Source: Candidatus Gottesmanbacteria bacterium UBA6580 (GTDB lineage: Bacteria > Patescibacteriota > Microgenomatia > UBA10105 > UBA927). From it: a stretch of DNA of 64,000 bases. The stretch is taken from contig DJJA01000003.1 of the NCBI GenBank assembly GCA_002433895.1, forward strand, positions 511,745 through 575,744. The letters are read 5' to 3'. Below are positions 1 to 62,378 of the stretch, in pieces. The first letter of the stretch is position 1, and each line of letters starts with the position of its first letter. The notes beneath the pieces were generated by a model that saw only the letters and a list, made by a program, of their open reading frames with translations, had not been told where the DNA came from and ran no database searches. Position numbers and translations under genes: made by a program.

Positions 1-1024
1 ACCAGACAACAAGGTGGTTTTCTTTTTTCCGTAATCCGCTGATAAGCCAAACGACTCCGAGAAGAAGAAGCGGCGCTTCAATTGGGTGCAGATTGCCATA
101 GCCCTCTATGTTGTGTGCTCGGTTACCTCCACCTTTGATAAAGAGAAATTCGGGTCCGTATGACCGGAGATAATTCTCAAATACCGTACGTACGGCGTAC
201 GTGATGCGGTTATGGGTAAGCCGTGCTGCGAGTGAATGAGGATCACGGTGCTCCTGTCTCGGAAGTTCAATGTGGTTATGTATAACCGTCGGGTCACCGA
301 AAATGCTTATGCCGCTTATTTTCGTGTGATCAGCAGAGAAAGTGACTGAAAGGATTGTTAGCGTCAGTATCACGCCGATGCCCAACGCTATCCAGAAGCG
401 CGGTATTTTTATAAGCTGCTGACGGTAAAAAAATAGTATGCCGGCAAGGAGCAGCGACGTGAATATGTGATTACCGTGGTAGGTATAATACGTCAGCGAA
501 AAGATCACGGCTGCTGCAATAAGGAAGGCGAGCGATTTCTTTTTTACCGCCAACAGATACCAGATAGTGCCGAGAATAGTAAATAGTACTGCGGTAATTG
601 CTTCGGACTCGACCCGCGAGATATGGATATGCCAGGGCATGATCGCGAGCACGAGTGATGAAAGCAGCGCGATAGTTTCTGAAGCAAACAGGAGCTTTGC
701 GAGATAGTAAATTGCAGCGACACTCATAATGCCCGCGATTGCTGAAGGTAACCGTACTGCCAGCTCAGAAAGGCCGAATATTTTTACAAAAGGTATGGTG
801 GTATAGATATACAGCGGTAGCTTCCAGTCTCCGAACGATTCGAAAGACAGTGGCAATAATCTTCCATACTCGTCCTTACCGGTGGTTGCGAGTGAGTATG
901 CAGTGTACCCTATGCTTGCTTCATCGCGGTTGATCCCCGGAGGAACGTTATCGAGATTATAGAGCCGTAATGCCGCCGCAAGAAGGATGATAATGATAAA
1001 AAAATACCGGAAGTTAATTTTCAT
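1..1024 (-). CDS. PMT_2/ArnT-like GT39-family membrane glycosyltransferase, paralog B0 (5' complete, 3' end runs off window)
   Basis: Hand translation of the minus strand from ATG at 1024 gives MKINFRYFFIIIILLAAALRLYNLDNVPPGINRDEASIGYTAYSLATTGKDEYGRLLP...AVRLPSAIAGI...LFIKGGGNRAHNIEGYG, collinear with the three + strand paralogs at 7719-12792. It is absent from the ORF track because no stop codon falls inside the window. Confidence 0.7.
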   Translation of the reverse strand, partial: MKINFRYFFIIIILLAAALRLYNLDNVPPGINRDEASIGYTAYSLATTGKDEYGRLLPLSFESFGDWKLPLYIYTTIPFVKIFGLSELAVRLPSAIAGIMSVAAIYYLAKLLFASETIALLSSLVLAIMPWHIHISRVESEAITAVLFTILGTIWYLLAVKKKSLAFLIAAAVIFSLTYYTYHGNHIFTSLLLAGILFFYRQQLIKIPRFWIALGIGVILTLTILSVTFSADHTKISGISIFGDPTVIHNHIELPRQEHRDPHSLAARLTHNRITYAVRTVFENYLRSYGPEFLFIKGGGNRAHNIEGYGNLHPIEAPLLLLGVVWLISGLRKKENHLVVW

Positions 1025-3251
1025 TTCTTTTTTGGCGAATAATGACGAGTAGTATGATTGTCGCACTGAGGCTCATGATACTCAAGAGCGCGCCATAGGT
1101 CGCACTTTTCGGATGATATTTTATGGTTACCGTGTGAGTACCCGCGGGTACTTCAAGTTTTTTCAGTTGTTCTTCAGTGGGGTAAATTGGTGTTGGTGTG
1201 GTATCTACCCACGCGAGCCAGCCCGGATAATATGTATCGGTGAGCACCAGGGTGCCGGCAGATGAGCTTTCCGTCCGCAAGGTGATATGTTCCGGCGCGT
1301 AAGCACTGATTGTGACTTTCCCTGTATTTAGCGAGGCGCGTGGTTGAGCACGTGTATTTTCATATACTATCCAGTCCTCATATGAATATACTTTCCGGAA
1401 AATATTCGGAGGATATACACCTTCATCACTCCCATTTTCTACGCGATCCAGTATGTAACGTACACTAAGAGCGTTTAATACTTTTTGTTTGTGTATATCC
1501 GACAGCCCCCCGTCACCAAATCCGGATACGATGGCGGCATCAGATCGTGTTGTGTTGTCAAACGCAGCAAGCGGTTTTCCCGTTTTATATGAATAGAGGA
1601 ATTGTCCGTACGATTTAGGATAAAGCGGGTCGTAGCCTTCAGGAGAAAACAGGTGATACTGGGAAGCAAAGTTCGCGGCAATATTTGCGGTGCCATACCC
1701 CCAGTACCGGTCTGGCGCTTGGCTTTTGAGATACGTGATGATCGGGTGGTCAGGAAAAACGAGTGATCGTTCCGCGAATGGGTTAAAACGGTTAAAAAAG
1801 ATAAATAAGTCTAATGTGTGAACAACAAGAAGTATGATAATGGCGTGCGCCCGCCATTTGGGAAGCGCTATGGCAATCCAGAATAATGAAAGTGTCGCGG
1901 CTGAAATAATTGCGCCGTAGAAAAGAGCCCGTATTGCTATCGGGGCATGGATAGTAAGCTCGGGAATAACCGGAAGCTTAGTAAATATTACAAGAAAAAC
2001 AAAGAGCCCGATTACTTCCAGTGTTCTCCGTACAAGTTTTTTAATTGAGTGTGTATCGGACATCCAATAATCGAGTCCCAATCCGCACATCATGGCAAAA
2101 GAAAAAGCAAAAAGAAACGACATGAGTGTTGGGCTGCTGGAGGTAAAAATCGGCACCGGTATCCGGTAGAGTACAGCAGTAATTGGGTGCGCGGTAATAA
2201 GGAGCAGGGTAATAGCGGTGGCTCCGGTAAACCATTTTGTGATGGTGTCTTTCCGGCGGAATGCGGAAAGCGAAAAAAACAACGGTACTAGCCCTATGGT
2301 TGTAACTTTGCCCACAAACGTATCTGTCGGCCAATAGGTGCGGGTGGCTGGGTTGCCAAAAAAATTAGGAAAAGGGAGGGAGAGTAATTGGAGCGGCTGG
2401 ATAAGTATTTTTGTAAATAAATTAGTGGCATCATGCGGCGAGCGTGCAGCATGCATGATGAGTTCAATGCCCGGGAGCAATTGAATACCGGAAATGCCTA
2501 TGCCGAGTGCCGTACATCCCCCTATATATGTCCACATTGTTCGCTTCGCGCGGAACCCGGTGTATATAAGGGTAAATACCAGCGTATACCCATAGACTTG
2601 CGGGTGGCCCGCAAGTAGTGACGCAGCATGCGCGAAGGTGAGTAATCCCAAGCTTGATACCTGTGGTTTTTCCCGGAGGTGCTCGATACAAAAAAGCATG
2701 AGTGGCAACCAGAGAATAACGTGTCCTATGGTGTTGTATTCGAGCCATACCGCCATAAAACCGGAAAACCCGAAAGACAGCGCAGCAAGGAGTGCACCCT
2801 GATACTGCATACCAATTTTCCGGCTATATATGTAGGTAAAAAGCGTGGCGAGGAATGGCTGCAAGATGATCAATAGAGTCCACGCGTCGATTTGAGAGAG
2901 CCACAGGTACAGCGCTCCTAGTGGGTACAGCGCGGCGCTCTGAAAATTAGCAAGGAGCGGAGCTCCTGAAAAATTATACGGGTTCCATAGGGGCAGCTTT
3001 CCTTGACGTAATGCTTCGACCACAAGCGTTTTCCAGGGATACATTTGCCGGATAACATCGGGATATTGTGCTTTATTCGGAACACCCCCTTCGCCATAAC
3101 CGAGATAGGAGGTGGACCGCCACGGCTGGAAATCGCTGACTAATATATCAGCAGGAATAGGTACTTTTCCGGAAAAAATTGTTTGATAAAAGAATAGCGA
3201 TATGATGCCAAAAAGAAAAATGAAGATGAATAGCCACTCGTTTTTTTTCAT
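1014..3251 (-). CDS. YfhO-family polytopic membrane protein (GT-C-type glycosyltransferase candidate) with a C-terminal extracytoplasmic domain
   Basis: Long ORF with many predicted TM helices. N-terminal region reads ...YPWKTLVVEALRQGKLPLWNPYNFSGAPLLANFQSAALYPL, typical of YfhO proteins. C-terminal YYPGW motif, a final TM helix and a basic tail. Start placed at the internal ATG 3251 (MKKNEWLF...), which forms an ATGA overlap with the upstream gene stop. Confidence 0.65.
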   Translation of the reverse strand: MKKNEWLFIFIFLFGIISLFFYQTIFSGKVPIPADILVSDFQPWRSTSYLGYGEGGVPNKAQYPDVIRQMYPWKTLVVEALRQGKLPLWNPYNFSGAPLLANFQSAALYPLGALYLWLSQIDAWTLLIILQPFLATLFTYIYSRKIGMQYQGALLAALSFGFSGFMAVWLEYNTIGHVILWLPLMLFCIEHLREKPQVSSLGLLTFAHAASLLAGHPQVYGYTLVFTLIYTGFRAKRTMWTYIGGCTALGIGISGIQLLPGIELIMHAARSPHDATNLFTKILIQPLQLLSLPFPNFFGNPATRTYWPTDTFVGKVTTIGLVPLFFSLSAFRRKDTITKWFTGATAITLLLITAHPITAVLYRIPVPIFTSSSPTLMSFLFAFSFAMMCGLGLDYWMSDTHSIKKLVRRTLEVIGLFVFLVIFTKLPVIPELTIHAPIAIRALFYGAIISAATLSLFWIAIALPKWRAHAIIILLVVHTLDLFIFFNRFNPFAERSLVFPDHPIITYLKSQAPDRYWGYGTANIAANFASQYHLFSPEGYDPLYPKSYGQFLYSYKTGKPLAAFDNTTRSDAAIVSGFGDGGLSDIHKQKVLNALSVRYILDRVENGSDEGVYPPNIFRKVYSYEDWIVYENTRAQPRASLNTGKVTISAYAPEHITLRTESSSAGTLVLTDTYYPGWLAWVDTTPTPIYPTEEQLKKLEVPAGTHTVTIKYHPKSATYGALLSIMSLSATIILLVIIRQKRNEN

Positions 3252-4882
3252 GCGTGTTGTTTTTTGCGGCTCGACAGGAGCAGTAATCCCATCATGCATA
3301 TAAACGAAAGTGCAGTCACCCCTTCTGCTATCTGGCGGATAGCAGACTCCTCCCAGACAACCCGTATCGTATGTGTCCCTTTTGGCAGACTAAATGTGAT
3401 AAGCCCCCGCCAATTTTGATCCTGAAATTCAATCGGAAGTTTTTGTCCGTTGTTATACACTCTCCAGCCGGGAAAGTACTGCGTACGGTCAACAACCTGC
3501 ACATCTGTTTCCGCATGTACGGTAAATGTATGTATTGTTCCTTTTTTGGTTGCATCGGTAATCGTGCCCGTACCGCTCGCGAGCTCAAACCGCTTTTCTG
3601 GATATGAGCCAGCGGGTCCAGCCGACCAGATAATATCCGTCTCTCCGAAGTATGTGGTGTTTAACGGATAATCCCAAAAATATTTTTCATCTACCCGGTC
3701 AAAGCCAAGCGGGGGCCGGAAATACACGCCGGCACTTATGATGCTGATAAGTGAAATGCTTATAAGCCAGGGAAATGGTATTTTTTTCCAAACGAGTACC
3801 ACCCCCCCTAAAAGTGCCAGTGATAGCGTGGTGAGATTGAGGAGTCTCCAGGGAAATTGAAACATGCGAAGTATAGGGATATTAGCCCAGAAAAATTCTG
3901 AAACGGGTTGCATAACAAAAAGGGCGGCAAGCGTCAGAAATATGGCAAACCATGCCAACTTGTTATGACTGCCTGTTATTTTTTTCTTGTACAGGAGATA
4001 TGCGGCAGAAATGAGGGCAATAACCTGCATCAGCCCTAAAGTTACTGCGATCCCGCCGGTGAGGAGTGTGCCGTTGTTTGTGAAGTTGGGTATGAAGAAA
4101 TTCTGAAGCGGCGCAAAGTGGGATTTATACATATCTTTCATAAATAGATCGCCATAGGTGAATTTCCGCTCAATAAGCGCCGGGAGCCAATAAAATGCGG
4201 AAAGTCCAAGCCCTAATGCGAGGGCACTAAGCGCAGTTATTCGTTTTTTATTGTCGGGGGCAAATACAAGCGCAAAAAGTACCGCAACGCCGAAAAAGAC
4301 GAGGCTGACGGCATTATGCGACACGATAAGGAGCAGTGTAGCGACACTGATAAGTACCACATTTTGCGCTGTATTCTTTTCTTCAAAGCTCCGTGTAATT
4401 GTGTAGAGCACCAATGGAATAAACGCGAGTGCGTACCCTTCTGCCATGTCGCCGCGGACGACCAGATCAACCAGATGAAACGGCGCAAACTGGTAAAGCA
4501 TGGTGGCAACAAACGCTCTGCCTTCATGTTTAAACAACCGCAGGGAAAATAGGTACATGAACACGCCTGATAATAGAAAACTAATAAGGAGCGCGAATTT
4601 AAATGAAAAAACCAAACCGCCTCCGAGAGCCACCGGTATGGAAGTTACCAGATAGGGTATATGGTAAATAAAATTGAAAAGCGGCATGCCATAGCCATAG
4701 TTAAGCTCCCCAGCCCACCGGGGAAGCAGTTGGCCTTCTGTGAGGGCCTTGTAATATGCGGCGATACGCGCAAAATGAACCGGACTGTCATGCGTGTGGG
4801 GAGCAAGCGGGGTCGTGAGTATGCTAATAAACGGCAGGAATGAAATTGCAATAACGAGGATATAATGTTTTAATGATTTCAT
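3248..4882 (-). CDS. YfhO-like/GT-C membrane protein, paralog A1 (HD-x3-H / PRW...GYG.P family)
   Basis: 544-aa ORF. N-terminal motifs HTHDSPVHFARIAAY and LPRWAGELNYGYGMPLFNFIYHIPY are shared with the ORFs at 14345 and 18424. Multi-TM core, then a C-terminal soluble domain with YFPGWRVYNNG and a final TM helix. Confidence 0.6.
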   Translation of the reverse strand: MKSLKHYILVIAISFLPFISILTTPLAPHTHDSPVHFARIAAYYKALTEGQLLPRWAGELNYGYGMPLFNFIYHIPYLVTSIPVALGGGLVFSFKFALLISFLLSGVFMYLFSLRLFKHEGRAFVATMLYQFAPFHLVDLVVRGDMAEGYALAFIPLVLYTITRSFEEKNTAQNVVLISVATLLLIVSHNAVSLVFFGVAVLFALVFAPDNKKRITALSALALGLGLSAFYWLPALIERKFTYGDLFMKDMYKSHFAPLQNFFIPNFTNNGTLLTGGIAVTLGLMQVIALISAAYLLYKKKITGSHNKLAWFAIFLTLAALFVMQPVSEFFWANIPILRMFQFPWRLLNLTTLSLALLGGVVLVWKKIPFPWLISISLISIISAGVYFRPPLGFDRVDEKYFWDYPLNTTYFGETDIIWSAGPAGSYPEKRFELASGTGTITDATKKGTIHTFTVHAETDVQVVDRTQYFPGWRVYNNGQKLPIEFQDQNWRGLITFSLPKGTHTIRVVWEESAIRQIAEGVTALSFICMMGLLLLSSRKKQHA

Positions 4883-4928
4883 GCGTGCCCTGTCCTTATA
4901 GGCATTATAACAAAGAATACTTCATGAC
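4883..4928. promoter_or_regulatory. Very compact divergent intergenic region (46 bp) that must hold promoters for both strands
   Basis: Contains TATAGGCATTATAAC between the divergent start codons at 4882 (minus) and 4929 (plus). Confidence 0.25.
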
Positions 4929-6419
4929 ATGAGAGTTCGGTACATATTGGACTGGTGGAAGCTCGGAATTATTTTTGTCGCCACCCTGCTACGGGTCTAT
5001 AGGCTGGAGACGCTCACGGAGTTTTTGGGCGATCAGGGGAGAACGATGCTTATTATGCGGGATTTTGTCTCGCAAGGAGTTGTGCCGCTTGCAGGCCCCA
5101 CCACACTCTCCGGACATCATTTAGGCCCGATATTCTATTATTTATTATTACCCGGCTATCTATTGACTGGTGAGCCTGTGGGGGTTTCATTGTGGATGGC
5201 GGTGCTTGGGGTAGTTGCCGTCTTTTTGATCTATGAAGCGGTTCGTCAGATGTTTGATATAGGTACGGCCCGGGTTGTTGCGTTGCTTTGGGCAGTATCT
5301 CCGGTATTGGTACGGGCTGACCGGATAATTTGGGAACCAAACCTCGTTCCGATGTTCGGAGTTTTATTTATCTACTTATTATATAAAGCCTACGGGTCAT
5401 GGCGGCCAAGTGCGTGGTTTGGGTTAGGGGTGACGGTTGGGGTATTGGTCCAATTGCATTATCCAAATATATTTTTTGTGGGTCTTACGGGGCTGGTGCT
5501 GTTGGTACCGCTTGTTAGGAAAAGCCGATCGTTGCCCGAGGTAGTACGGGTAACGCTCTCGTGGGTAGCCGGGTTTAGCATCATACTGCTCCCATTTTTG
5601 TGGCATCAGTATACCGTGGGGTTTAAAGATGTGATAGGTATAGCGACGGTTATTGGTGAGGGTGTTGGGGTGACGCTGGGGAAACGGGCGATGGTGTCGG
5701 TCGGCTTGGATTATGCGTATAGAGTATTAGGAAGGGCCGTGCCATGGATGAGTAGGGAACCGGCAGCACTACTTTTGGGTTTGTGGGCTCTTTTCGTCTG
5801 TTTCAGGCCTACGGTGAGAAATATATTTTTTTCCGTATGGTTTGCCGGAGGAGTAGCAGCGATGCTCCGGTATAGCGGTGTCGTGCACGACCATTATTTA
5901 TTTTTTATCGTACCGGTACCGTTTCTTATGCTTGCATCCGTTGTTCACAGCGCGAAACCGGGGGTATGGCGGAATATTCTGTATACTGCAGTAATCATTG
6001 TGTGTTTCGTTCAATTATCACTAACGGATATTTTTCGCACAGGATCCGCGGATATTCCAAGAGTAAAACATGCGGTGGCACTCATGAGTGATATCGTAAA
6101 AGATAAAGACTTTTCATTTACTCTGGTTAATACGGCTTCCTATTCGGATCTGCATTACCGATACTATATGAAGGTTGCGGGTATCCACCCAAAGCCTGCG
6201 GTTGCGGGCGGTTATGCCCGGTTTGTTATCGTATGTGACCGTCCTGATTGCCCAACAGTTTCGGAGCTATCCCGGAGAGAGCAGTTGCCTATACTATGCT
6301 ATGAAGAGCATTGTTCGGAATATTATCCGAGCATCCCGCTATCTTCACAGTGGATATATGCGAAAGACATTCCGGTTACCAATAATTTGGGAAGGCTGTA
6401 TATATTTGACGCCCGGTAA
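4929..6419 (+). CDS. Polytopic membrane protein, GT-C-type glycosyltransferase candidate (ArnT/PMT-like)
   Basis: 496 aa, about 11 hydrophobic helices, with an early loop motif LGDQGRTMLIMRDF. Transcribed divergently from the A1 gene across a 46-bp gap. Confidence 0.45.
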   Translation: MRVRYILDWWKLGIIFVATLLRVYRLETLTEFLGDQGRTMLIMRDFVSQGVVPLAGPTTLSGHHLGPIFYYLLLPGYLLTGEPVGVSLWMAVLGVVAVFLIYEAVRQMFDIGTARVVALLWAVSPVLVRADRIIWEPNLVPMFGVLFIYLLYKAYGSWRPSAWFGLGVTVGVLVQLHYPNIFFVGLTGLVLLVPLVRKSRSLPEVVRVTLSWVAGFSIILLPFLWHQYTVGFKDVIGIATVIGEGVGVTLGKRAMVSVGLDYAYRVLGRAVPWMSREPAALLLGLWALFVCFRPTVRNIFFSVWFAGGVAAMLRYSGVVHDHYLFFIVPVPFLMLASVVHSAKPGVWRNILYTAVIIVCFVQLSLTDIFRTGSADIPRVKHAVALMSDIVKDKDFSFTLVNTASYSDLHYRYYMKVAGIHPKPAVAGGYARFVIVCDRPDCPTVSELSRREQLPILCYEEHCSEYYPSIPLSSQWIYAKDIPVTNNLGRLYIFDAR

Positions 6420-6462
6420 AGCCGCGTAGTCAGAACCGGCCTGATTTAGTACAATAAAAGCT

Positions 6463-7722
6463 ATGTTGGCACAAGTTTTGGACGCAATACTCCTTTTTGC
6501 TTTTTCCATCCCCGTGGTCATGAAATACCGGATTTTGCCAGTTGAAGGCACTCCCTATTGGTTGTTCGGTGTGCTATTTACCATTCTCGCATCACATTGT
6601 TACATATCGCTATATCCCGCGGCGCTCGGGAGATTCCGAAGCCGTTTAGGAAGTATCAAAATGTTTTTTCTGATAGTCACGTTGTGTATCACTCTTGGAG
6701 GAGTTACTGTTACGGCGATGTTTGACCGGGCAAAAACTGCACCTGTGTATGGAGTGCACGATATTATCTTGCAGCAGGAAGCGGCGATGCGGTACCTTAT
6801 CGTGGGTAAAAATCCTTACAAGGAAACATATTTTGGTACTGCCGTTGAAGACTGGCACTATGGCGAATTAGGAAAAGATGCGGTAAATCCGGCGCTATAT
6901 CATTTTGTAATGCCGCCCTGGTATCTGTTATTTCCGTTTGCTTTTTATTACACCGGAATTCCATTGCTTGGATTTTTTGATGGCCGTATGGCGCTACTAT
7001 TTACCATGGCATTATTGCTGGTAACACTTTGGTATTGGTACCGGGATAAAACAATTGCGCGGATTGCGATCACCCTCACGGCTCTTTCTCCCTCGGTTGT
7101 CGATTATTTTGTTGAAGGGAGGAGTGATGTATTTGCGCTTGCCTGGCTTATGGTAGCGATGCTCCTCGTCCGCTACAAACAGTACGTATGGAGCGGTGTA
7201 TTTTTGGCACTCAGCTTTTTAAGTAAGCAAACAACATGGTTTATCCTGCCGTTTTTTGCACTATTTCTTTGGAGTAAAAATGTAAAAAATACCGCCGTAT
7301 TTTGGCTGACTGCGATTGTATCTGGAGCGGTAGTTAGCGTGTTTGTCATTCCGTTTTTACTCTGGGATGCCCGCGCGTTTGTCGACAGCGTGCTGCTGTA
7401 CTTAACAGGAAATACGCCAACCAGTTATCCGGTGAGCGGCTATGGTTTAGGCATGATGCTGTATGATGTTGGTGTTATCCGGGATATCCACGCGTATTAT
7501 CCGTTTATCTTATGGCAGCTTGCCATCGCGTTACCGTTCCTTATTATCGTGCTGCGCTGGCTTTGGAAGAAACCGACTGAATCAGGGGTGATGATTTCCT
7601 ATGCGTTGTTCCTTTTTGTGTATTGGTATTTGAGCAGATACTTTAACAATAGCCACCTTGGGTATTTGTCGATGCTTTTTGTATTGGGAGGGCTTAAGGC
7701 CGCGGACGAAACGAACACATGA
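6463..7722 (+). CDS. Polytopic membrane protein, GT-C candidate (possibly DUF2029/GT87-like mannosyltransferase type)
   Basis: 419-aa multi-TM ORF containing VDYFVEGRSDVFALAWLMV...LSKQTTWFILPFFALFLW. Its stop forms an ATGA overlap with the next gene. Confidence 0.4.
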   Translation: MLAQVLDAILLFAFSIPVVMKYRILPVEGTPYWLFGVLFTILASHCYISLYPAALGRFRSRLGSIKMFFLIVTLCITLGGVTVTAMFDRAKTAPVYGVHDIILQQEAAMRYLIVGKNPYKETYFGTAVEDWHYGELGKDAVNPALYHFVMPPWYLLFPFAFYYTGIPLLGFFDGRMALLFTMALLLVTLWYWYRDKTIARIAITLTALSPSVVDYFVEGRSDVFALAWLMVAMLLVRYKQYVWSGVFLALSFLSKQTTWFILPFFALFLWSKNVKNTAVFWLTAIVSGAVVSVFVIPFLLWDARAFVDSVLLYLTGNTPTSYPVSGYGLGMMLYDVGVIRDIHAYYPFILWQLAIALPFLIIVLRWLWKKPTESGVMISYALFLFVYWYLSRYFNNSHLGYLSMLFVLGGLKAADETNT

Positions 7723-9341
7723 AACGATTAACGTTATCCGGAATTATTCTTTTGGGCATCATGCTTGCCGCATTGGTGCTGCGTACATATAACATCAGCA
7801 GTAACCCGCCGGCTATTTCTTGGGATGAAGCCTCTATTGGATACAATGCGTATACCATATTGACGACCGGCAAGGACGAGCACGGAAAATTATTGCCGAT
7901 CGATACATTTGCCGCGTTTGGGGATTACAAACCACCGATACCCATTTACTTAACAGTGCCGTTTGTTGCTCTTTTGGGTCTGAACGAAGTGGCAGTACGG
8001 CTTCCATCTGCTTTTGCCGGCGTGCTGACCGTTTGGGTGCTGTATTTGCTGGTGTTGGAATTGTTCAAGAGCATGAAAAACAATACGGTAATGGCGTTGT
8101 TATCGGCCGCGGTACTTACGGTATCGCCATGGCATATCATGCTTTCCCGTGCTGGTTTTGAGGCAAATATTGCGTTGCTGTTTTTAGTCACCGGAGCGTG
8201 GATGGTCTTAAAAGCCCGGGAACATCCGGTGTATTTTTATGTTTGCTGGTTGCCGTTTGTCGCGGGAATTTATACCTTTAACAGCACGCGGTATGCCGGG
8301 CCACTGATTGCGGCTTCTCTCCTTGTATACGTGTATCCTTTTATAAAGGTTGCCAAGAAACAATTTATAGCAGGGCTCATCATTGCCGCTATCGCAATAC
8401 TTCCTATTTTCCCTCACCTGGTATCAAAGCAGGCGCGTCTCCGGTTTGAAGAAGTGAGTATATTTACGGATCTGCGGACAGTGCTTACTTCTAACAGTCG
8501 CCGAGAACTTGATGGATTTACCTGGTGGTCAGCAGTGCTGCATAACCGGAGAGTGGGGTATGCGCGTGAATATCTTATTCATTTTTTTGACAACTTGGAG
8601 CCGAGGTATCTGTTTATAAAAGGTGATGGTAATCCAAAGTTCTCTATTCAGGACGTGGGCCAATTGCTGTTGGTGAGCGCGCCGTTTGTCGTCATTGGTT
8701 TATTACGGCTAATCAGGGATTATCCCGGCCTTGCGTTGCTTTTAGGGTGGTGGTTATTTGCTTCCATAGCGCCTACGGCAGTTGCGCGCGAGACGCCGCA
8801 TGCACTGCGTACTGAAAATGGGCTTCCGGTGTACATGATTATTACCGCGTACGGAATATTCACCAGTGTTTTGGGAGCCGTGCGGACGAAAAAAATATGG
8901 CTGCTTTCGTTTTTATATCTTATTCTGTTTGCCGGAAACTTTTCGTATTTTTGGCATAATCTTATGATCCATTACCCGAAAGAATTTTCCGGTGAATGGC
9001 AGTATGGCTACAAACAGGCAATTGAACTGGTGCAGTTAAAGAGAAGTGAGTACGACACCGTGGTACTCACTGAGAGTATCGGTAGACCGTATATTTATGC
9101 GCTTTTTTACGAACGGATGCCGCTTCTGCAATTTGAAAACACAAAAGACGCCTCCTTTGATGCGGCTGGATTTTACAATGTCTACGGTTTCGGACCCTAT
9201 CGGTTTACTAAGGAAAGCGTTGGGAAGTATGAAGGCAGAACCCTTTATATCCTGCCGCCAAAAGATGTCCCCGACGGGGCGGTTATCGTTAAATCAATTA
9301 ATTTATTAAACGGTACGCCGGTGCTGGTTGCATTTGAGTAA
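7719..9341 (+). CDS. PMT_2/ArnT-like GT39-family membrane glycosyltransferase, paralog B1
   Basis: N-terminus reads ...NPPAISWDEASIGYNAYTILTTGKDEHGKLLP...DYKPPIPIYLTVPF...AVRLPSAFAGVLTVW, a PMT/ArnT-type first loop with the acidic DE motif. 540 aa, multi-TM. Confidence 0.7.
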   Translation: MKRLTLSGIILLGIMLAALVLRTYNISSNPPAISWDEASIGYNAYTILTTGKDEHGKLLPIDTFAAFGDYKPPIPIYLTVPFVALLGLNEVAVRLPSAFAGVLTVWVLYLLVLELFKSMKNNTVMALLSAAVLTVSPWHIMLSRAGFEANIALLFLVTGAWMVLKAREHPVYFYVCWLPFVAGIYTFNSTRYAGPLIAASLLVYVYPFIKVAKKQFIAGLIIAAIAILPIFPHLVSKQARLRFEEVSIFTDLRTVLTSNSRRELDGFTWWSAVLHNRRVGYAREYLIHFFDNLEPRYLFIKGDGNPKFSIQDVGQLLLVSAPFVVIGLLRLIRDYPGLALLLGWWLFASIAPTAVARETPHALRTENGLPVYMIITAYGIFTSVLGAVRTKKIWLLSFLYLILFAGNFSYFWHNLMIHYPKEFSGEWQYGYKQAIELVQLKRSEYDTVVLTESIGRPYIYALFYERMPLLQFENTKDASFDAAGFYNVYGFGPYRFTKESVGKYEGRTLYILPPKDVPDGAVIVKSINLLNGTPVLVAFE

Positions 9342-9462
9342 TATGCCGGGTAGTAGAATTTCGACACGATTTCGTTTCGTTGCCGGAATATAGACTGCCC
9401 AAATTTATATTGTATTGTTGATAAAATGAAGGGATATTGAAATCTTGTCATCGTAAAAAGCA

Positions 9463-11148
9463 ATGGTCGAAATTTCACAACTCGGTATGAAAAAATATAT
9501 TTTTGTGTTCATAGTAATGGTCGCTATCGTATTGCGGTTTTGGTCGCTTGGATCTGTGCCGCCATCTCCGGATTGGGATGAGGCAGCCCTCGGATATAAC
9601 GCTTACTCAATACTCAAAACCGGGAGGGATGAGTACGGTACATTTTTGCCCAGAACACTTCGGTCATTTGATGATTATAAGCCGCCACTGTATGTCTATC
9701 TGTCAATTCCTCCGGTCGCGATATTTGGGTTAAGTACATGGTCGGTCCGGTTGCCCTCTGCGGTGATGGGAGTGTTAGCGGTTATCGGAACTTATTTTCT
9801 TGTTATTGAATTGCTGCGTGGTCAAAAAGAGAAAGGCAAGCAGAAAGCGCGCGGAATTCAGCCGGAAACACTGGCAGCACTTACGTCATTTTTATTGGCT
9901 ATCTCACCATGGCATCTGCAGTTTTCACGGATTGCGTTTGAGGCAAATACAGGGGTGACACTTAATGTGTGGGGACTGGTGGCGTTTTTGCGGGGTCTTC
10001 GGTCGTTGCCGTGGATGATGGCCAGCGCGTTCTTTTTTGGATTATCCCTCTATGCCTATCATAGCGAGCGGGTTTTTGTGCCGATGCTTCTTATTATCGT
10101 AAGTATATTGTGGCGTAAAGAATTGTTTGCCGATGCAAAAAAATTAGCAATCGGTATTATTATCGGTATTCTTACCGCTGCCCCTTTGTTACCGGTGGTA
10201 CTGGACAGTACTTCAGTGACGCGCCTGAAGGGAACCAGTTCATTATCGGATCAGACAGGTTTACTGATGCGGTCAACCGCAAAACTGGAGGACGACCGTA
10301 AGTCCGGTAATGTGACTGGCGCACTTTTTGATAACCGGCGTATCGTATACGCAAAAACACTGATTGACGGATATATCAGTCATTTTTCACTGCGGTGGCT
10401 GTTTTTGGTCGGGGATAATGACCGGCATCATGCACCGGATAACGGTCTGTTGTACCTTTGGGAGTTGCCATTTTTCTTATGGGGAATATACGCAGTTTGG
10501 CGAAACGGTGGCAGGCTCGCGTCATTGTTGTTGAGTTGGATACTGATTACCCCGATTGCCGCATCTCCAACTTCCGAGACCCCTCATGCAATACGGACAC
10601 TCGTGGCGCTTCCGGCGCTGCAAATATGTACGGCTTTGGGTATTGTGGCATTCATGGGAAAGCTGCAGGAGACGCGGAAAAGATTATCGGGTGTGCTCCG
10701 GTGGCTGCCTGTTGTGGTGCTCTGTGTCGTGGGCGGATTTGTGATTATTAACACTGTATTTTATCTGCATATGTATCACACGCACTTAAATCATGAATAT
10801 CCGAAATTCTGGCAATATGGTTATGAACAGGCGGTACGGTACGCAGAAGCGCATAAAGAAAAATACGACAAGATAATCGTGTCAACGTCACTCGAGCAAC
10901 CACACATGTTCTTTCTTTTTTATACGAAATATGACCCGAAGAAATATTTGGAAGCGGGTGGTACTGCATCCGGAGGGTTTGCGGAAAACAGAAACCGTTT
11001 TGATAAGTACGAATTCCGGCCGATATCCAATTGGGGGGATGAGCGGCACGATGGCACCATCCTCTATATTGGCTCACCGATGGAAGTTCCCGGCGGTACG
11101 GTCATATCGTACCCCAACGGCACGGACGCGATACATATTTCGGAATAA
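9463..11148 (+). CDS. PMT_2/ArnT-like GT39-family membrane glycosyltransferase, paralog B2
   Basis: Contains PPSPDWDEAALGYNAYSILKTGRDEYGTFLP...DYKPPLYVYLSIPP...SVRLPSAVMGVLAV. The true start may be the second ATG at 9487 (MKKYIFVF). Confidence 0.7.
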   Translation: MVEISQLGMKKYIFVFIVMVAIVLRFWSLGSVPPSPDWDEAALGYNAYSILKTGRDEYGTFLPRTLRSFDDYKPPLYVYLSIPPVAIFGLSTWSVRLPSAVMGVLAVIGTYFLVIELLRGQKEKGKQKARGIQPETLAALTSFLLAISPWHLQFSRIAFEANTGVTLNVWGLVAFLRGLRSLPWMMASAFFFGLSLYAYHSERVFVPMLLIIVSILWRKELFADAKKLAIGIIIGILTAAPLLPVVLDSTSVTRLKGTSSLSDQTGLLMRSTAKLEDDRKSGNVTGALFDNRRIVYAKTLIDGYISHFSLRWLFLVGDNDRHHAPDNGLLYLWELPFFLWGIYAVWRNGGRLASLLLSWILITPIAASPTSETPHAIRTLVALPALQICTALGIVAFMGKLQETRKRLSGVLRWLPVVVLCVVGGFVIINTVFYLHMYHTHLNHEYPKFWQYGYEQAVRYAEAHKEKYDKIIVSTSLEQPHMFFLFYTKYDPKKYLEAGGTASGGFAENRNRFDKYEFRPISNWGDERHDGTILYIGSPMEVPGGTVISYPNGTDAIHISE

Positions 11149-11151
11149 TTT

Positions 11152-12792
11152 ATGCCTATAAAACGATTATTATTCCTCAGCGGAATTTTCATTGTTGCCG
11201 CCTTTTTCCGTTTTTACAACCTTACGCTTGTGCCTCCGAGCCCGTCACTTGATGAGGTTTCTATCGGTTATAACGCGTATTCAATATTGCACACGGGAAA
11301 AGATGAATACGGTGTTTCTTGGCCGCTGCTGCTCCGGGCGTATGACGATTTCCGTCCCGCCCTATATGTCTACTTCACTATTCCATTTGTGTGGTTATTT
11401 GGCTTGACCGCGGAGGCAGTGCGGTTGCCGTCGGTTATGCTCTCGCTTATCACTGTGTATGTGGTGTACTGCATCGGGAAATTGATCGGAAAAAAATATT
11501 TATCGTTTGAACGCTTGGGCGATGTTGCTGCAGCTATACTCGCAATTTCTCCGTGGCATATATACCTATCGCGGTTGGGGCATGAAGCGAATTTGGGCTT
11601 AGCATTGGTCGCCTTGGGTGTATATTTTTTCCTCCGTGCAGTAGTGACATCGAGCAGAAATGCGTGGTTATTCGCGGCCATTTCGTTTGGGTTATCAGTG
11701 CATGGGTACCAGAGCCAGAAAATAATCAGTCCGTTGTTATTGATTTTCGGAGGCGCATTATATTGGAAGGCAATATGGCATGAAAAGAAAAAGGTGATGT
11801 TTGCGGCCGCCGTCGGACTTATTATCGCAATACCAGCGGTCACCGTGACGTTGTCGCCGCAAGGGATGGTCCGGTTCCGGGGTACGAGTGCGTTTGCTGA
11901 TGATGCAGCGATTGTGGTTGCAGCACGGGAAAAATATATAGCCGCAAAAGAATCGGAGAACCGTATCGCACAGATTTTCCAGAGTAGGTACGTCACCAAC
12001 GCTGTGATATTTGCTACAAATTATGTGTCACATTTTTCACCGGCGTGGCTTTTTGCGGGAGGGGAAAGAGAGGCACATAAAGTGCCTGGATTGGGACTTA
12101 TGTATGTGTGGGAATTGCCGCTTCTTTTGTTTGGACTGTGGGCAATTATTGCTTCACGGTTGCCTAGGCGGTTACAAGCATTTTTGCTCATAAGTATTTT
12201 TATTTCTCCTATACCGGCGTCCCTTACGACACAGGCACCGCATGCGATGCGCGCGTATACGTTTATCCCATTGCTTCAGGTTGTGGAGGCATTTGGAGTG
12301 TGGTGGATAGTCCGCAGGCTCAGTAAGCAGCAGCTCCGGATACTTGCGGTAGTTGTCGGGATGGTCGTGTCTATGGGGCTTTCAAAATTCTGGCAGGGAT
12401 ATTTTGTGCGGTTTCCTGTGGAGCAATCGGACGCTTTCCAGTATGCTATGAAAGAGGCGGTTTCTTATGCACGCGTATCGGAAGCAAGTTACCAGAAGAT
12501 AGAATTTTCTAACCAGGGGGCGTTATACCAGTCGTACATGTTTTTTCTCTTCTACACCCGTTTCAACCCCGGTGAGTATCTACGGTTGGGTGGCACGATA
12601 AGCGGTGGGTACGAAGAAGCACATAGTATCGGTAAATACGCGTTCGGTATAATACCAGCGCGATACGAAGATATGAAAAAATCAGTACTGTACATATATG
12701 ATAGCGCTATGGTGCCACAGGGGGCGAAGGTTATAAAACGATTTATAGATGCTGGGGGCAAGGAGGCAATTGTTGCCGCTACAATATTATGA
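11152..12792 (+). CDS. PMT_2/ArnT-like GT39-family membrane glycosyltransferase, paralog B3
   Basis: Contains PPSPSLDEVSIGYNAYSILHTGKDEYGVSWP...DDFRPALYVYFTIPF...AVRLPSVMLSLITV. 546 aa, same architecture as B1 and B2. Confidence 0.7.
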   Translation: MPIKRLLFLSGIFIVAAFFRFYNLTLVPPSPSLDEVSIGYNAYSILHTGKDEYGVSWPLLLRAYDDFRPALYVYFTIPFVWLFGLTAEAVRLPSVMLSLITVYVVYCIGKLIGKKYLSFERLGDVAAAILAISPWHIYLSRLGHEANLGLALVALGVYFFLRAVVTSSRNAWLFAAISFGLSVHGYQSQKIISPLLLIFGGALYWKAIWHEKKKVMFAAAVGLIIAIPAVTVTLSPQGMVRFRGTSAFADDAAIVVAAREKYIAAKESENRIAQIFQSRYVTNAVIFATNYVSHFSPAWLFAGGEREAHKVPGLGLMYVWELPLLLFGLWAIIASRLPRRLQAFLLISIFISPIPASLTTQAPHAMRAYTFIPLLQVVEAFGVWWIVRRLSKQQLRILAVVVGMVVSMGLSKFWQGYFVRFPVEQSDAFQYAMKEAVSYARVSEASYQKIEFSNQGALYQSYMFFLFYTRFNPGEYLRLGGTISGGYEEAHSIGKYAFGIIPARYEDMKKSVLYIYDSAMVPQGAKVIKRFIDAGGKEAIVAATIL

Positions 12793-16761: not shown

Positions 16762-17279
16762 AGCGGTTTTTTGTCGGAGTTATTATTTCGGTACTATATT
16801 GTTTCAGTATGCTGCCAACCGTGCGTGCTGATTATGTGTTGCCCTACCCCGGGTTTATGCCCGGAAATAAACTGTATAAAGTGTCACGCTTCTTGGATAA
16901 AGCAAAAGAGCCGCTCTATTTCGGTCCGCTCAGCGCATACAAATATCACCTTGGTCTGGCTGATAAATACTTGGTGGAGGCGAAGGTGTTATTCGAATAT
17001 AAACAGTATTTGCTTGCGGTAGATGCATTGGCCCGCTCAGACAAAGAATTTACTATGCTTCCCCGGTATCTGGTACAGGCGGGGAAGCAGCGGAAAGATG
17101 TATCCTTGTTCGAACAGCAGCTTTCAGAAGCAGCGTTGATGCACAAGCAAATACTGGAGGAGTTATTGGTACAGCTTCCCGATACATTCACATGGACACC
17201 GGAGAAATCAGCCGCAACCTTATTGCCTCTCAAAGATTTGCTGCAGAGTTCGGTGACTATCCGTTCAAACGTATTATGA
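16758..17279 (+). CDS. Small secreted hypothetical protein (possibly DUF5667-like)
   Basis: N-terminal signal or anchor MKRFFVGVIISVLYCFSMLPTVRA followed by DYVLPYPGFMPGNKLYKVSRFLDKAKE. Tightly coupled to its neighbours by 4-nt overlaps on both sides. Confidence 0.4.
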   Translation: MKRFFVGVIISVLYCFSMLPTVRADYVLPYPGFMPGNKLYKVSRFLDKAKEPLYFGPLSAYKYHLGLADKYLVEAKVLFEYKQYLLAVDALARSDKEFTMLPRYLVQAGKQRKDVSLFEQQLSEAALMHKQILEELLVQLPDTFTWTPEKSAATLLPLKDLLQSSVTIRSNVL

Positions 17280-42232: not shown

Positions 42233-42243
42233 TAATTTTACAT

Positions 42244-43914: not shown

Positions 43915-43918
43915 CTTT

Positions 43919-44533: not shown

Positions 44534-44558
44534 GGTGAATAGTATAGCAGTTTGTATG

Positions 44559-45611: not shown

Positions 45612-45739
45612 ATGGGCGAAAAATAATTGAGGCGCGTGACAACTATATGCGCCGAACTATATAATAGTCTATTCGTATAAAGAATAATATCCGTGAGTCG
45701 TCCTATTAGAGTGGGTTAAATTTCTACTGTTGTCTGAGC
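45612..45739. promoter_or_regulatory. AT-rich divergent promoter region between the minus-strand GT2 gene and the plus-strand GT4 gene
   Basis: 128-bp gap that is the only sizeable intergenic region in the central part of the window. It contains TATATAAT, TATAAAG and TAATAT boxes and a GCGCGTGAC...ATGCGC palindrome. Confidence 0.4.
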
Positions 45740-62373: not shown

Positions 62374-62378
62374 GGCCG

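What the first reader, a model, noticed from the sequence alone, without database searches (positions are those of the whole stretch)
1..12792. Four-member tandem array of PMT_2/ArnT-like (GT39) paralogs, one on the opposite strand at the window edge
B0 (minus, 1-1024), B1 (7719), B2 (9463) and B3 (11152) share the loop-1 block P-P-x-I/P-x-WDEA-x-GYNAYSIL-x-TGKDE-x-G-x-x-P and D(Y/F)(K/R)PP-x-Y-x-Y and AVRLPS-x-x-x-G. Protein O-mannosyltransferase (PMT) homologs normally occur as a single copy in Actinobacteria. A four-fold tandem expansion points to diversified lipid-linked-sugar transferases. B0 was missed by the ORF track because it has no in-window stop.
Basis: seen in the sequence. Interest (0 to 1): 0.55.

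Follow-up and report, generated by a model that had tools for sequence, protein, structure and literature searches.

The report
Conserved membrane glycosyltransferase paralogs, CPR bacterium
Four (really five) old, diverged copies of a membrane sugar-transferase gene sit in a very large cell-surface glycan gene cluster of a tiny uncultured Gottesmanbacteria-like bacterium. The same arrangement recurs across its relatives, so it is a lineage-wide feature already labelled in databases, not a surprising recent expansion.

Summary
B0 (1-1024, minus), B1 (7719-9341), B2 (9463-11148) and B3 (11152-12792) are homologous polytopic proteins: BLASTP E 1e-50 to 1e-101, 27-38% identity. All score above the Pfam PMT_2 cut-off. 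B0 is intact (544 aa) on longer contigs, and a fifth paralog follows it just outside the window.

The organism is a Patescibacteria/CPR bacterium (Gottesmanbacteria-like, 46% GC), so the Actinobacteria benchmark does not apply. The copies are ancient. Each has its own orthologs at 40-88% identity in the same position across Gottesman-, Woese- and Levybacteria, B1 lies directly upstream of B2 in 71 of 74 loci, and there are no gene-conversion tracts.

The B2 model has a GT-C fold closest to AglB, ArnT and STT3. Specific GT39, GT83 and GT66 features are not met.

The genes lie in a glycan locus that fills the whole window. It holds at least 14 GT-C genes, a DPM1/ArnC-like polyprenyl-phosphate-sugar synthase next to a Wzx-like flippase, ManC and a priming phosphoglycosyltransferase.

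The most likely role is transfer of sugars from a polyprenyl-phosphate-sugar donor to distinct acceptors outside the membrane, as GacL-type enzymes do. Close relatives are already annotated as GT39 or ArnT-like. Interest is modest.

The parts
1..1024 (-). B0: N-terminal 341 codons of a 544-aa PMT_2-type GT-C glycosyltransferase. Its start overlaps the stop of the upstream YfhO gene by 11 nt.
   Evidence: Translation is open to base 1. PF13231 43.0 bits and PF02366 40.4 bits. The full 544-aa gene is intact in L007:12228-13862. A fifth paralog of 557 aa follows it outside the window.
1014..3251 (-). YfhO-family GT-C (745 aa as called on public contigs), upstream of B0 in the leftward operon.
   Evidence: PF09586 YfhO at 70.5 bits. 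Exact protein found on 16 contigs. Orthologs sit in the same position in most related loci.
3248..4882 (-). PTPS_related / AftD-like GT-C membrane protein, first gene of the leftward operon. It is one of three paralogs, with 14345-16003 and 18424-19962.
   Evidence: PF10131 at 60.5 bits. 27-33% identity to the two paralogs.
4929..6419 (+). Distant PMT_2-type GT-C (P5), first gene of the rightward operon. It is not a member of the B subfamily.
   Evidence: PF13231 at 36.2 bits. hhalign against the B profile gives E 3e-5 over the N-terminal 140 residues only.
6463..7722 (+). GT87-like GT-C (related to the polyprenyl-phosphate-mannose-dependent mannosyltransferase family). Its end overlaps the B1 start by 4 nt.
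   Evidence: PF09594 GT87 at 27.2 bits against a cut-off of 25. Orthologs at 42-89% identity lie directly upstream of B1 in most related loci, about 53 of the 80.
7719..9341 (+). B1: PMT_2-type GT-C glycosyltransferase, 540 aa.
   Evidence: PF13231 35.9 bits and PF02366 32.6 bits. Its orthogroup spans 76 species loci. A B1 ortholog lies directly upstream of the B2 ortholog in 71 of 74 loci.
9463..11148 (+). B2: PMT_2-type GT-C glycosyltransferase, 561 aa. Orthologs align from residue 9, so the true start may be the ATG at 9487.
   Evidence: PF13231 at 27.9 bits. AF2 model with pLDDT 82 and pTM 0.85. Foldseek matches AglB, ArnT and STT3. Orthologs at 43-88% identity in 80 species loci.
11152..12792 (+). 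B3: PMT_2-type GT-C glycosyltransferase, 546 aa.
   Evidence: PF13231 at 47.1 bits. Its orthogroup spans 36 loci with NJ bootstrap 89 of 100.
12789..14348 (+). X: 519-aa polytopic protein (about 9 TM) with no Pfam hit and weak similarity to P5. It is present in some related genomes and absent in others.
   Evidence: No family at E<=1. BLASTP to P5 gives E 5e-7. About 9 TM segments. Absent from L014 and L016.
14345..16003 (+). Y2: PTPS_related/YfhO-like GT-C paralog.
   Evidence: 33% identical to 3248-4882 at E 4e-78. Weak YfhO hit. Orthologs are conserved downstream of the B genes.
17276..18427 (+). MptA_B/GT87-like polytopic protein (G87b).
   Evidence: Precomputed hit to PF26314 MptA_B_family on the identical gene in L001. 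Orthologs in most related loci. No hit in my own Pfam scan.
18424..19962 (+). Y3: third PTPS_related/YfhO-like paralog.
   Evidence: 27-28% identity to 3248-4882 and 14345-16003, at E 1e-53 and 2e-48.
21034..21729 (+). GT2 enzyme of the DPM1/ArnC/AglJ type. It is the candidate polyprenyl-phosphate-sugar synthase that would make the lipid-linked donor for the GT-C enzymes.
   Evidence: Best PDB matches are Pyrococcus dolichol-phosphate-mannose synthase 5mlz (E 1.5e-18, residues 4-206) and ArnC. NCBIfam gives AglJ at 7e-35, plus dolichyl-phosphate hexose transferase and PpgS, all below the equivalog cut-offs. It lies within 10 kb of B2 in 33 related loci at a median 66% identity.
21729..22988 (+). 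Wzx-like (MOP superfamily) flippase directly after the synthase. Start as called on public contigs (419 aa); the longest ORF begins at 21702.
   Evidence: PF13440 at 35.7 bits against a cut-off of 23, and PF01943 at 28.4 bits. Adjacent to the synthase ortholog in 15 of 20 loci that carry both.
61288..63023 (+). ManC-like mannose-1-phosphate guanylyltransferase (61288-62373) and a Bac_transf priming phosphoglycosyltransferase (62379-63023). These give pathway context at the far end of the same locus.
   Evidence: TIGR01479 at E 9e-68 and PF00483. PF02397 at 200.8 bits and TIGR03025 at 9e-75.

Best explanation
B0, B1, B2 and B3, plus a fifth copy just left of the window, are ancient paralogs of a PMT_2-type GT-C membrane glycosyltransferase subfamily. 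This subfamily is characteristic of Microgenomates-type CPR bacteria.

**Proposed mechanism**
- The DPM1/ArnC-like GT2 at 21034-21729 charges a polyprenyl phosphate with a sugar on the cytoplasmic face. Mannose is plausible, because a ManC lies in the same locus.
- A flippase moves the charged lipid outward. The adjacent Wzx-like protein is the candidate.
- Each B enzyme then transfers that sugar at the outer face of the membrane, using the acidic residues of its first extracytoplasmic loop (two DE pairs 17 residues apart).

**Division of labour.** The donor-side residues are shared by all paralogs, while each paralog is a separately conserved orthogroup. The copies therefore most likely differ in acceptor site or linkage. 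Together with the YfhO-, PTPS_related- and GT87-type GT-Cs around them, they would decorate or extend a cell-envelope glycan or glycoconjugate that the rest of the 64-kb locus primes and assembles.

**What is shown and what is inferred**
- Shown: homology, fold, conserved residues, ancient orthogroups, conserved synteny and locus content.
- Inferred: the donor, the acceptor, and one distinct reaction per paralog.
For: **Family and fold**
- PMT_2 scores exceed the gathering cut-off for all four.
- The B2 model (pLDDT 82, pTM 0.85) matches GT-C enzymes only: AglB 5gmy, ArnT 5ezm/5f15, STT3 6ezn, AftA, DPY19, Emb and Pmt4.
- A family profile reaches ArnT 5ezm by sequence at E 2e-5. It aligns the family KPP...FGL...R(L/V)P block to ArnT KPPFHMW...FGL...ARL.

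**Catalytic competence**
- All five paralogs keep both DE pairs.
- Positions conserved (same majority residue, >=80%) in all four orthogroups analysed, in 266 sequences from 80 loci, are concentrated in the first loop. They include D39, E40, D56, R96, S155, R156, P374 and R378.

**Ancient, maintained paralogs**
- Ortholog identity is 40-88% against 27-38% between paralogs.
- The NJ tree places each window copy in its own clade, spanning 76, 80, 36 and 43 loci.
- B1 lies directly upstream of B2 in 71 of 74 loci.

**Donor pathway in the same operon**
- The GT2 at 21034-21729 best matches dolichol-phosphate-mannose synthase, ArnC, AglJ and PpgS.
- It abuts a Wzx-like flippase, and this pairing is conserved.
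- ManC and a priming phosphoglycosyltransferase lie in the same locus.
- Genes overlap by 4 nt along the operon.

**Precedent**
- PMT_2-domain GT-Cs of monoderm bacteria (GacL, GtsC, CsdD, CsdF, GtlB, GttB) are the third component of systems that glycosylate wall polymers from C55-P-sugar donors. One example uses the Wzx-type flippase GacK (PMC8035078; PMC11127046).
Against: - No biochemical data exist for any member.
- Neither donor sugar nor acceptor can be read from the sequence.
- The synthase scores are below the NCBIfam equivalog cut-offs. The Wzx-like protein could instead flip a repeat unit for a Wzx/Wzy pathway.
- Exact-clade bootstrap support is only moderate for B1 (18), B2 (47) and B0 (19).
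- Positions strongly conserved within each orthogroup but different between them are few, only 3. Specificity differences are therefore not demonstrated.
- The C-terminal extracytoplasmic domain could not be assigned to a fold.
- The match of the DE pair to the catalytic Asp of ArnT and PMT rests on fold similarity and on my recollection of those structures, not on a residue-level superposition done here.
Confidence: 0.65

Rival explanations
1. The B proteins are true protein O-glycosyl (PMT-like) transferases. Each would modify a different set of secreted or surface proteins, such as pilins, S-layer proteins or adhesins, rather than a polysaccharide or lipoglycan.
For: - B0 and B1 also exceed the PF02366 PMT cut-off.
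- The DE motif in loop 1 is present.
- Pmt4 and Pmt1-Pmt2 are among the Foldseek matches.
- NCBI names close relatives 'glycosyltransferase family 39 protein'.
- The locus GT2 weakly resembles PgfS, and the YfhO gene weakly resembles PgfM2, of the streptococcal adhesin glycosylation system.
Against: - No PMT_4TMC or MIR domain is detected, and B2 and B3 miss PF02366.
- The PMT structures rank below AglB, ArnT, STT3 and AftA, and cover only about half of the model, with TM-score 0.27-0.29.
- In monoderm bacteria, characterised PMT_2-domain GT-Cs act on wall polymers (PMC8035078).
- The surrounding locus looks like a polysaccharide pathway: a priming phosphoglycosyltransferase, many GT2 and GT4 genes, a Wzx-like protein and sugar-nucleotide modifying enzymes.
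Confidence: 0.18
2. The B proteins are ArnT-like lipid-modifying enzymes. They would add sugars to membrane lipid or glycolipid head groups to alter surface charge or resistance.
For: - ArnT is the only solved protein that the family profile reaches by sequence.
- ArnT gives the most even two-way TM-scores among the structural matches, 0.51-0.54.
- An ArnC-like synthase lies in the operon.
- JGI names relatives '4-amino-4-deoxy-L-arabinose transferase-like'.
Against: - The sequence match is weak (E 2e-5) and limited to TM2-TM6.
- No aminotransferase, formyltransferase or deformylase of an Ara4N pathway was found among the window ORFs scanned.
- From general knowledge, CPR bacteria are regarded as lacking lipopolysaccharide.
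- Five conserved paralogs are hard to explain with one lipid acceptor.
Confidence: 0.07
3. The array is a recent, lineage-specific tandem expansion, possibly homogenised by gene conversion.
For: Three copies are head-to-tail with short gaps. Tandem layout is the usual signature of local duplication.
Against: - Paralog identity is only 27-38%.
- The longest shared exact nucleotide word is 10-13 nt. The only blastn matches are 35-78 nt at the conserved loop-1 motif.
- Each copy has positional orthologs in Gottesman-, Woese- and Levybacteria.
Confidence: 0.02
4. Some paralogs work as obligate hetero-oligomers, for example a B1-B2 pair comparable to Pmt1-Pmt2 or EmbA-EmbB. In that case the number of copies would reflect complex subunits rather than separate reactions.
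For: - The B1-B2 adjacency is almost invariant, in 71 of 74 loci.
- Among the structural matches are known GT-C heterodimers, EmbA-EmbB 7bvf and Pmt1-Pmt2 6p25.
Against: - All copies keep the full set of putative catalytic residues, so none looks like a non-catalytic partner.
- No interaction evidence could be computed here.
- This reading is compatible with the best explanation rather than exclusive of it.
Confidence: 0.12

Closest known systems
PMT_2-domain GT-C enzymes of multi-component transmembrane glycosylation systems in monoderm bacteria (GacL, GtsC, CsdD/CsdF, GtlB/GttB, YkcB; review PMC8035078)
   Same: - Same Pfam family (PMT_2), GT-C fold and monoderm-type host.
- The genes are linked to a GtrB/DPM1-type GT2 and a flippase. 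For GacI-GacK-GacL the flippase is a Wzx type, as here.
- Several parallel GT-C copies per genome also occur there: three Csd pairs in L. lactis and three pairs in B. subtilis.
   Different: - Here five paralogs of one subfamily, plus at least nine other GT-C genes, are concentrated in one conserved locus. The known systems are isolated GT-A/GT-C pairs.
- No direct sequence comparison with those proteins was possible here.
- The acceptor polymer of CPR bacteria is unknown.
ArnT (GT83), undecaprenyl-phosphate-L-Ara4N:lipid A transferase (PDB 5ezm/5f15)
   Same: - It is the only solved structure that the family profile reaches by sequence (E 2e-5).
- Foldseek E 3e-7 and TM-score about 0.5 in both directions.
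- Similar size, and a polytopic domain followed by a C-terminal soluble domain.
- An ArnC-like donor synthase lies nearby.
   Different: - About 13-15% identity.
- No Ara4N pathway genes in the window.
- The host is a CPR bacterium without a known lipid A.
- Five paralogs rather than one gene.
Protein O-mannosyltransferases (GT39: yeast Pmt1/2/4, actinobacterial Pmt)
   Same: - GT-C fold.
- DE motif in loop 1.
- B0 and B1 pass PF02366.
- NCBI labels close relatives GT39.
   Different: - No MIR or PMT_4TMC domains, and B2 and B3 miss PF02366.
- PMT structures align to only about half of the model.
- The organism is not an actinobacterium, so the single-copy expectation does not apply.
Mycobacterial/corynebacterial extracytoplasmic GT-C ensemble (EmbA/B/C, AftA-D, MptA/B, PimE) that builds arabinogalactan and LM/LAM from decaprenyl-phosphate sugars
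   Same: - Many different GT-C enzymes cooperate on one envelope glycan using polyprenyl-phosphate-sugar donors.
- GT87/MptA_B-like and AftD-like hits occur in this locus.
- AftA, Emb and AftD are among the structural matches.
   Different: - The resemblance is at the level of the system only.
- There is no orthology to the mycobacterial enzymes.
- Here the genes are packed into one operon-like locus, and the product is unknown.

Membership tests
Pfam PF13231 PMT_2 (GT-C membrane glycosyltransferases) | HMM score at or above the curated gathering cut-off of 26.1 bits | tested here: met
   B0 43.0, B1 35.9, B2 27.9 (only a 46-residue stretch) and B3 47.1 bits.
GT-C fold glycosyltransferases | Polytopic helical domain, with an extracytoplasmic first loop carrying conserved acidic residues, and structural similarity to solved GT-C enzymes | tested here: met
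   - AF2 model of B2 with pLDDT 82 and pTM 0.85.
- All significant Foldseek PDB hits are GT-C enzymes, at E 7e-8 to 1e-3.
- D39, E40 and D56 are universally conserved in loop 1.
- Sidedness of the loop is inferred, not measured.
GT39 protein O-mannosyltransferase (PMT) | PF02366 PMT N-terminal domain above cut-off | tested here: inconclusive
   Met by B0 (40.4 bits) and B1 (32.6 bits) against a cut-off of 22.7. No hit for B2 or B3 at E<=0.01.
GT39 protein O-mannosyltransferase (PMT) | C-terminal PMT_4TMC domain, and in eukaryotic members a MIR domain in loop 5 | tested here: not met
   No such Pfam hit in any of the four at E<=0.01. The C-terminal 115 residues form a soluble alpha/beta domain in the model.
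GT39 protein O-mannosyltransferase (PMT) | Transfer of mannose from polyprenyl-phosphate-mannose to Ser/Thr of proteins | not testable with these tools
   This needs biochemistry or glycoproteomics.
GT83 ArnT | Sequence and structure similarity to ArnT | tested here: inconclusive
   Profile against 5ezm gives E 2e-5 over TM2-TM6 only. Foldseek gives E 3e-7 and TM about 0.5, no better than AglB or STT3.
GT83 ArnT | Ara4N donor pathway (ArnA/B/C/D) and a lipid A acceptor | tested here: not met
   An ArnC-like GT2 is present. No aminotransferase, formyltransferase or deformylase was found among the window ORFs scanned. Genome-wide absence could not be tested.
GT66 oligosaccharyltransferase (AglB/PglB/STT3) | WWDxG motif in the C-terminal domain and a PF02516 STT3 hit | tested here: not met
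   No WWDxG in any of the five paralogs. No PF02516 hit, although AglB is the top Foldseek match.
Three-component extracytoplasmic glycosylation system (GtrB/GtrA/Gtr*, GacI/GacK/GacL type) | GT-A polyprenyl-phosphate-sugar synthase encoded with the GT-C | tested here: met
   - 21034-21729 matches DPMS 5mlz at E 1.5e-18 and ArnC.
- It matches AglJ at 7e-35, below the equivalog cut-off.
- It is conserved near the B genes in 33 loci.
- It lacks the C-terminal TM helices of GtrB-type enzymes (231 aa).
Three-component extracytoplasmic glycosylation system (GtrB/GtrA/Gtr*, GacI/GacK/GacL type) | Dedicated flippase for the lipid-linked monosaccharide | tested here: inconclusive
   A Wzx-like MOP protein abuts the synthase (PF13440 at 35.7 bits), and is adjacent in 15 of 20 loci. 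It could instead flip a repeat unit. No GtrA-family protein was identified.
CAZy family assignment (GT39, GT83 or other) | Membership by CAZy/dbCAN family models | not tested
   No CAZy or dbCAN library is available in these tools.

The most novel reading that the evidence does not exclude
The conserved Microgenomates super-locus may encode an undescribed CPR envelope glycopolymer. The locus covers at least 64 kb here and extends at least 10 kb further left. It holds at least 14-17 GT-C enzymes of four families, plus one DPM1-like donor synthase.

On this reading the polymer is largely assembled outside the membrane by a GT-C assembly line. That would be functionally analogous to mycobacterial LM/LAM/arabinogalactan synthesis. 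The invariantly adjacent B1-B2 pair would act as a heterodimer like EmbA-EmbB, and the product would mediate attachment to host cells.
Probability: 0.25. Interest if true: 0.6.

Novelty: new member of a known kind. Interest (0 to 1): 0.3.

Why it matters
CPR bacteria have genomes of about 1 Mb and very limited metabolism. This one still devotes a contiguous block of at least 64 kb, roughly 6-7% of its 1.13-Mb longest contig, to surface glycan genes, with an unusual density of GT-C enzymes. The core layout is kept across several candidate phyla.

That points to a surface glycoconjugate important for their presumed episymbiotic lifestyle. None of the literature searches I ran turned up a description of its chemistry or enzymology.

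For annotation practice, the case shows that 'GT39' or 'ArnT' labels derived from PMT_2 hits should not be read as protein O-mannosyltransferase or lipid A modification in these organisms.

The paralog array itself is not a surprise. The family is large, with 5,323 clusters at 50% identity and E<=1e-30, and it is already annotated.

Tried and rejected
- **Exact look-up of the upstream ORF.** The 761-aa ORF 1014-3299 found nothing. The publicly called gene starts at Met17, giving 745 aa, and that form worked.
- **Gene conversion.** blastn with word size 7 and an exact-word scan between the four genes found only motif-level matches. Rejected.
- **tRNA and Rfam scans.** Both were empty for the window.
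- **Promoter and terminator scan of 1-17000.** Promoter-like counts were at or below the shuffled expectation. Terminator-like sites were modestly above it (31 against 19.7 +/- 4.6), but most lie inside coding sequence. Uninformative.
- **Single-sequence search of solved structures with B2.** Only a spurious DAD1 hit appeared. The family profile reached ArnT only.
- **C-terminal domain model.** A three-sequence alignment gave pLDDT 51.6, too poor to search.
- **hhalign of gene X against the B profile.** Not significant, at 1.6% probability, so X is not counted as a family member.
- **Literature.** Seven searches (CPR, Patescibacteria, Gottesmanbacteria or Saccharibacteria combined with GT-C, PMT_2, mannosyltransferase, glycosyltransferase or cell envelope) found no description of these arrays. 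One Saccharibacteria paper mentions GT87 and dolichol-phosphate mannosyltransferase genes in a phosphatidylinositol-mannoside context (PMC6031116).
- **First NJ run.** It was invalid because of a distance overflow and was repeated correctly.

Full report
**1. What is in the sequence**

- B1 (7719-9341, 540 aa), B2 (9463-11148, 561 aa) and B3 (11152-12792, 546 aa) are complete plus-strand ORFs.
- B0 is an open minus-strand frame from the ATG at 1024 to base 1: 341 codons with no stop.
- The four proteins are clearly homologous. BLASTP gives E 1e-50 to 1e-101 and 27-38% identity over nearly full length.
- tblastn finds exactly these four members in the 64-kb window.
- All four exceed the Pfam PMT_2 gathering score. 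B0 and B1 also exceed the PMT (PF02366) score.

**2. Completing B0, and a fifth copy**

- Public contigs match the window with 0 mismatches over window 1-3251 (the 3,251 bases compared) and extend it to the left.
- On them B0 is an intact 544-aa gene (L007:12228-13862).
- It is followed immediately by a fifth paralog of 557 aa. This copy shares 28-30% identity with the others and carries the same loop-1 motifs.

**3. Whose genome this is**

- GC content is about 46%.
- The exact proteins occur on metagenomic contigs of up to 1.13 Mb and in the MAG GCA_002343365.1.
- The closest named relatives are Candidatus Gottesmanbacteria and the Patescibacteria group.
- The comparison with Actinobacteria is therefore beside the point.

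**4. Age of the paralogs**

- Each window copy has a positional ortholog in two other Gottesmanbacteria loci at 44-63% identity. Identity to any paralog there is about 30-36%.
- I examined 80 loci, one per GTDB species. Their record titles name Gottesman-, Woese- and Levybacteria, plus many records evidently mislabelled 'uncultured Gammaproteobacteria'.
  - 79 of the 80 loci carry 2-7 family members within about 20 kb; one 4.9-kb contig shows a single copy.
  - A B1 ortholog lies directly upstream of the B2 ortholog in 71 of 74 loci that have enough flank.
- A neighbour-joining tree of 273 sequences puts window B1, B2, B3 and B0 in separate clades spanning 76, 80, 36 and 43 loci.
  - Exact-clade bootstrap support is 18, 47, 89 and 19 of 100, and 96 for the fifth copy.
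- At the nucleotide level the paralogs share no exact word longer than 13 nt. They match only over 35-78 nt at the conserved motif, so there is no gene conversion.
- The duplications thus predate the split of these candidate phyla, and the copies have been kept separately ever since.

**5. What the proteins are**

- An AlphaFold2 model of B2, built from 32 sequences, has pLDDT 82 and pTM 0.85. It shows a polytopic helical domain and a C-terminal alpha/beta domain of about 115 residues.
- Every significant Foldseek match in the PDB is a GT-C glycosyltransferase:
  - AglB 5gmy, ArnT 5ezm/5f15 and STT3 6ezn, with TM-scores of about 0.5;
  - then AftA, DPY19, EmbA/B, Pmt4, Pmt1-Pmt2, AftB and AftD.
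- By sequence, a family profile reaches only ArnT, at E 2e-5 over TM2-TM6.
- Positions conserved in all four orthogroups analysed (same majority residue in at least 80% of each) cluster in the first loop: D39, E40, G44, Y45, A47, Y48, D56, G59 and P63. Others are R96, P149, S155, R156, P374 and R378.
- All five paralogs keep two DE pairs 17 residues apart.
- By analogy with ArnT and PMT, the first DE pair is the likely catalytic site. This step is inferred from my knowledge of those structures.
- Family-specific tests:
  - GT39: PMT_4TMC and MIR domains are absent, and B2 and B3 miss PF02366.
  - GT66: there is no WWDxG motif.
  - GT83: the match is weak and there is no Ara4N pathway in the window.
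- The defensible label is 'PMT_2-type GT-C, subfamily unassigned'.

**6. Context**

- The whole window is one glycan locus.
- Two divergent operons start 46 nt apart at 4882 and 4929, and most neighbouring genes overlap by 4 nt.
  - Leftward: PTPS_related, YfhO, B0, then the fifth copy and further membrane proteins.
  - Rightward: a distant PMT_2 gene, GT87, B1, B2, B3, X, a PTPS/YfhO-like gene, GT2, a small protein, an MptA_B-like gene, another PTPS-like gene, GT4, a DPM1-like GT2, a Wzx-like gene and more.
- The run of plus-strand genes continues to about 43.9 kb.
- Further along are:
  - two more PMT_2 genes (26782-28101 and 55498-56946);
  - about seven GT2 and eight or nine GT4 genes;
  - six epimerase/dehydratase genes, six methyltransferases and two hexapeptide acyltransferases;
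  - ManC and a Bac_transf priming enzyme.
- About 19 proteins in the window are polytopic.
- The GT2 at 21034-21729 best matches dolichol-phosphate-mannose synthase (5mlz, E 1.5e-18), ArnC, AglJ and PpgS.
  - It is highly conserved among the locus genes tested, at a median 66% identity in 33 loci.
  - It abuts the Wzx-like gene in 15 of 20 loci that carry both.

**7. Mechanism proposed**

- The locus carries a lipid-phosphate-sugar synthase, a flippase candidate and many GT-C enzymes. This is the logic of three-component extracytoplasmic glycosylation.
- In monoderm bacteria the GT-C component of such systems is often a PMT_2-domain protein (GacL, GtsC, CsdD/F, GtlB) that acts on wall polymers. 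GacI-GacK-GacL uses a Wzx-type flippase (PMC8035078; PMC11127046).
- I therefore read the B proteins as transferases that take a sugar from a polyprenyl-phosphate-sugar donor and act outside the membrane.
- They share donor chemistry but differ in acceptor or linkage, within a larger GT-C ensemble.
- The donor sugar is unknown. Mannose is plausible given ManC, the GT87-like neighbours and the DPMS-like synthase. The acceptor is also unknown.
- Rival readings are given separately: protein O-glycosylation, lipid modification and hetero-oligomeric subunits.

**8. Novelty**

- Close relatives (members of the same 90%-identity clusters) are already labelled 'glycosyltransferase family 39 protein' by NCBI and 'Ara4N transferase-like glycosyltransferase' by JGI.
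- The family has 5,323 clusters at 50% identity with E<=1e-30.
- I found no paper describing these arrays.
- The finding is best described as new, uncharacterised members of a known enzyme kind in a conserved CPR glycan locus. It is useful context but not a surprise.

**9. Limits**

- The tree is neighbour-joining, without reference GT39 or GT83 sequences.
- The C-terminal domain could not be modelled alone.
- No function has been tested for any member.

Noticed in passing
L007:13864-15537 (immediately left of window base 1, minus strand in window orientation): A fifth B-family paralog of 557 aa, with the same loop-1 DE motifs, follows B0. Beyond it lie two unannotated polytopic proteins (653 and 567 aa), a methyltransferase, a GT2 and another YfhO. 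The locus therefore extends at least 10 kb beyond the window edge.
   Followed up: partly
window 36003-46000: GC drops to 0.40-0.41 here, against 0.44-0.49 elsewhere. The region holds large polytopic proteins of unknown family: 36003-38225 (740 aa), 38222-42232 (1336 aa, about 14 TM with a C-terminal GDSL/SGNH esterase domain) and 42244-43914 (556 aa). It also holds the only two minus-strand genes of this stretch, a methyltransferase at 43919-44533 and a GT2 at 44559-45611. This may be a variable or horizontally acquired island inside the glycan locus.
   Followed up: partly
window 52310-55501: A 1063-aa protein with about 20 predicted TM segments. Its only hit is a faint Wzy_C (O-antigen ligase/polymerase) match at E 0.019. 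It may be a fused or duplicated polymerase/ligase-like protein.
   Followed up: partly
window 3248-4882 (-), 14345-16003 (+), 18424-19962 (+); 6463-7722 and 17276-18427; 4929-6419 and 12789-14348: Three further sets of diverged GT-C paralogs sit in the same locus:
- a PTPS_related/YfhO-like trio at 27-33% identity;
- a GT87/MptA_B-like pair, grouped on Pfam hits alone, since BLASTP at E<=1e-3 found no similarity between them;
- a distant PMT_2-like pair.

The B family is thus only one of several ancient duplications here.
   Followed up: partly
window 12789-14348: Gene X lies between B3 and the next conserved gene in this genome and some relatives. It is missing from others, such as L014 and L016. 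Some Levybacteria-type loci carry several X-like copies, so this is a variable slot in an otherwise conserved block.
   Followed up: partly
window 1-64000: GC skew is positive in every 2-kb bin, mostly +0.08 to +0.18 (near zero at 36-38 and 44-46 kb, inside the low-GC region). This includes the first 4.9 kb, where the genes are on the minus strand. The pattern suggests a replication-strand compositional bias rather than a transcription effect. A paper on a complete Microgenomates genome reports an unusual strand disparity (PMC7143001, seen, not read).
   Followed up: no
L020-L096 (record titles): Many species-representative MAG records are titled 'uncultured Gammaproteobacteria bacterium', one 'Pseudomonadales' and one 'Pacearchaeota archaeon'. 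They carry loci that are syntenic with, and 45-72% identical to, the Gottesmanbacteria/Levybacteria block. These titles look like mislabels or mis-binned contigs.
   Followed up: no
window 9342-9462 and 9463-9487: The only sizeable intergenic gap in the rightward operon, 121 nt, lies between B1 and B2. B2 orthologs align only from residue 9, so the real B2 start may be the ATG at 9487, which would widen the gap to about 145 nt. An internal promoter is possible but was not shown.
   Followed up: partly
window 49053-49721: A 222-aa ORF that matches only the N-terminal (Glyco_transf_4) half of a GT4 enzyme. It overlaps the preceding epimerase ORF by about 85 nt and sits just before a complete GT4 gene at 49718-50845. 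It may be a truncated or split glycosyltransferase.
   Followed up: no
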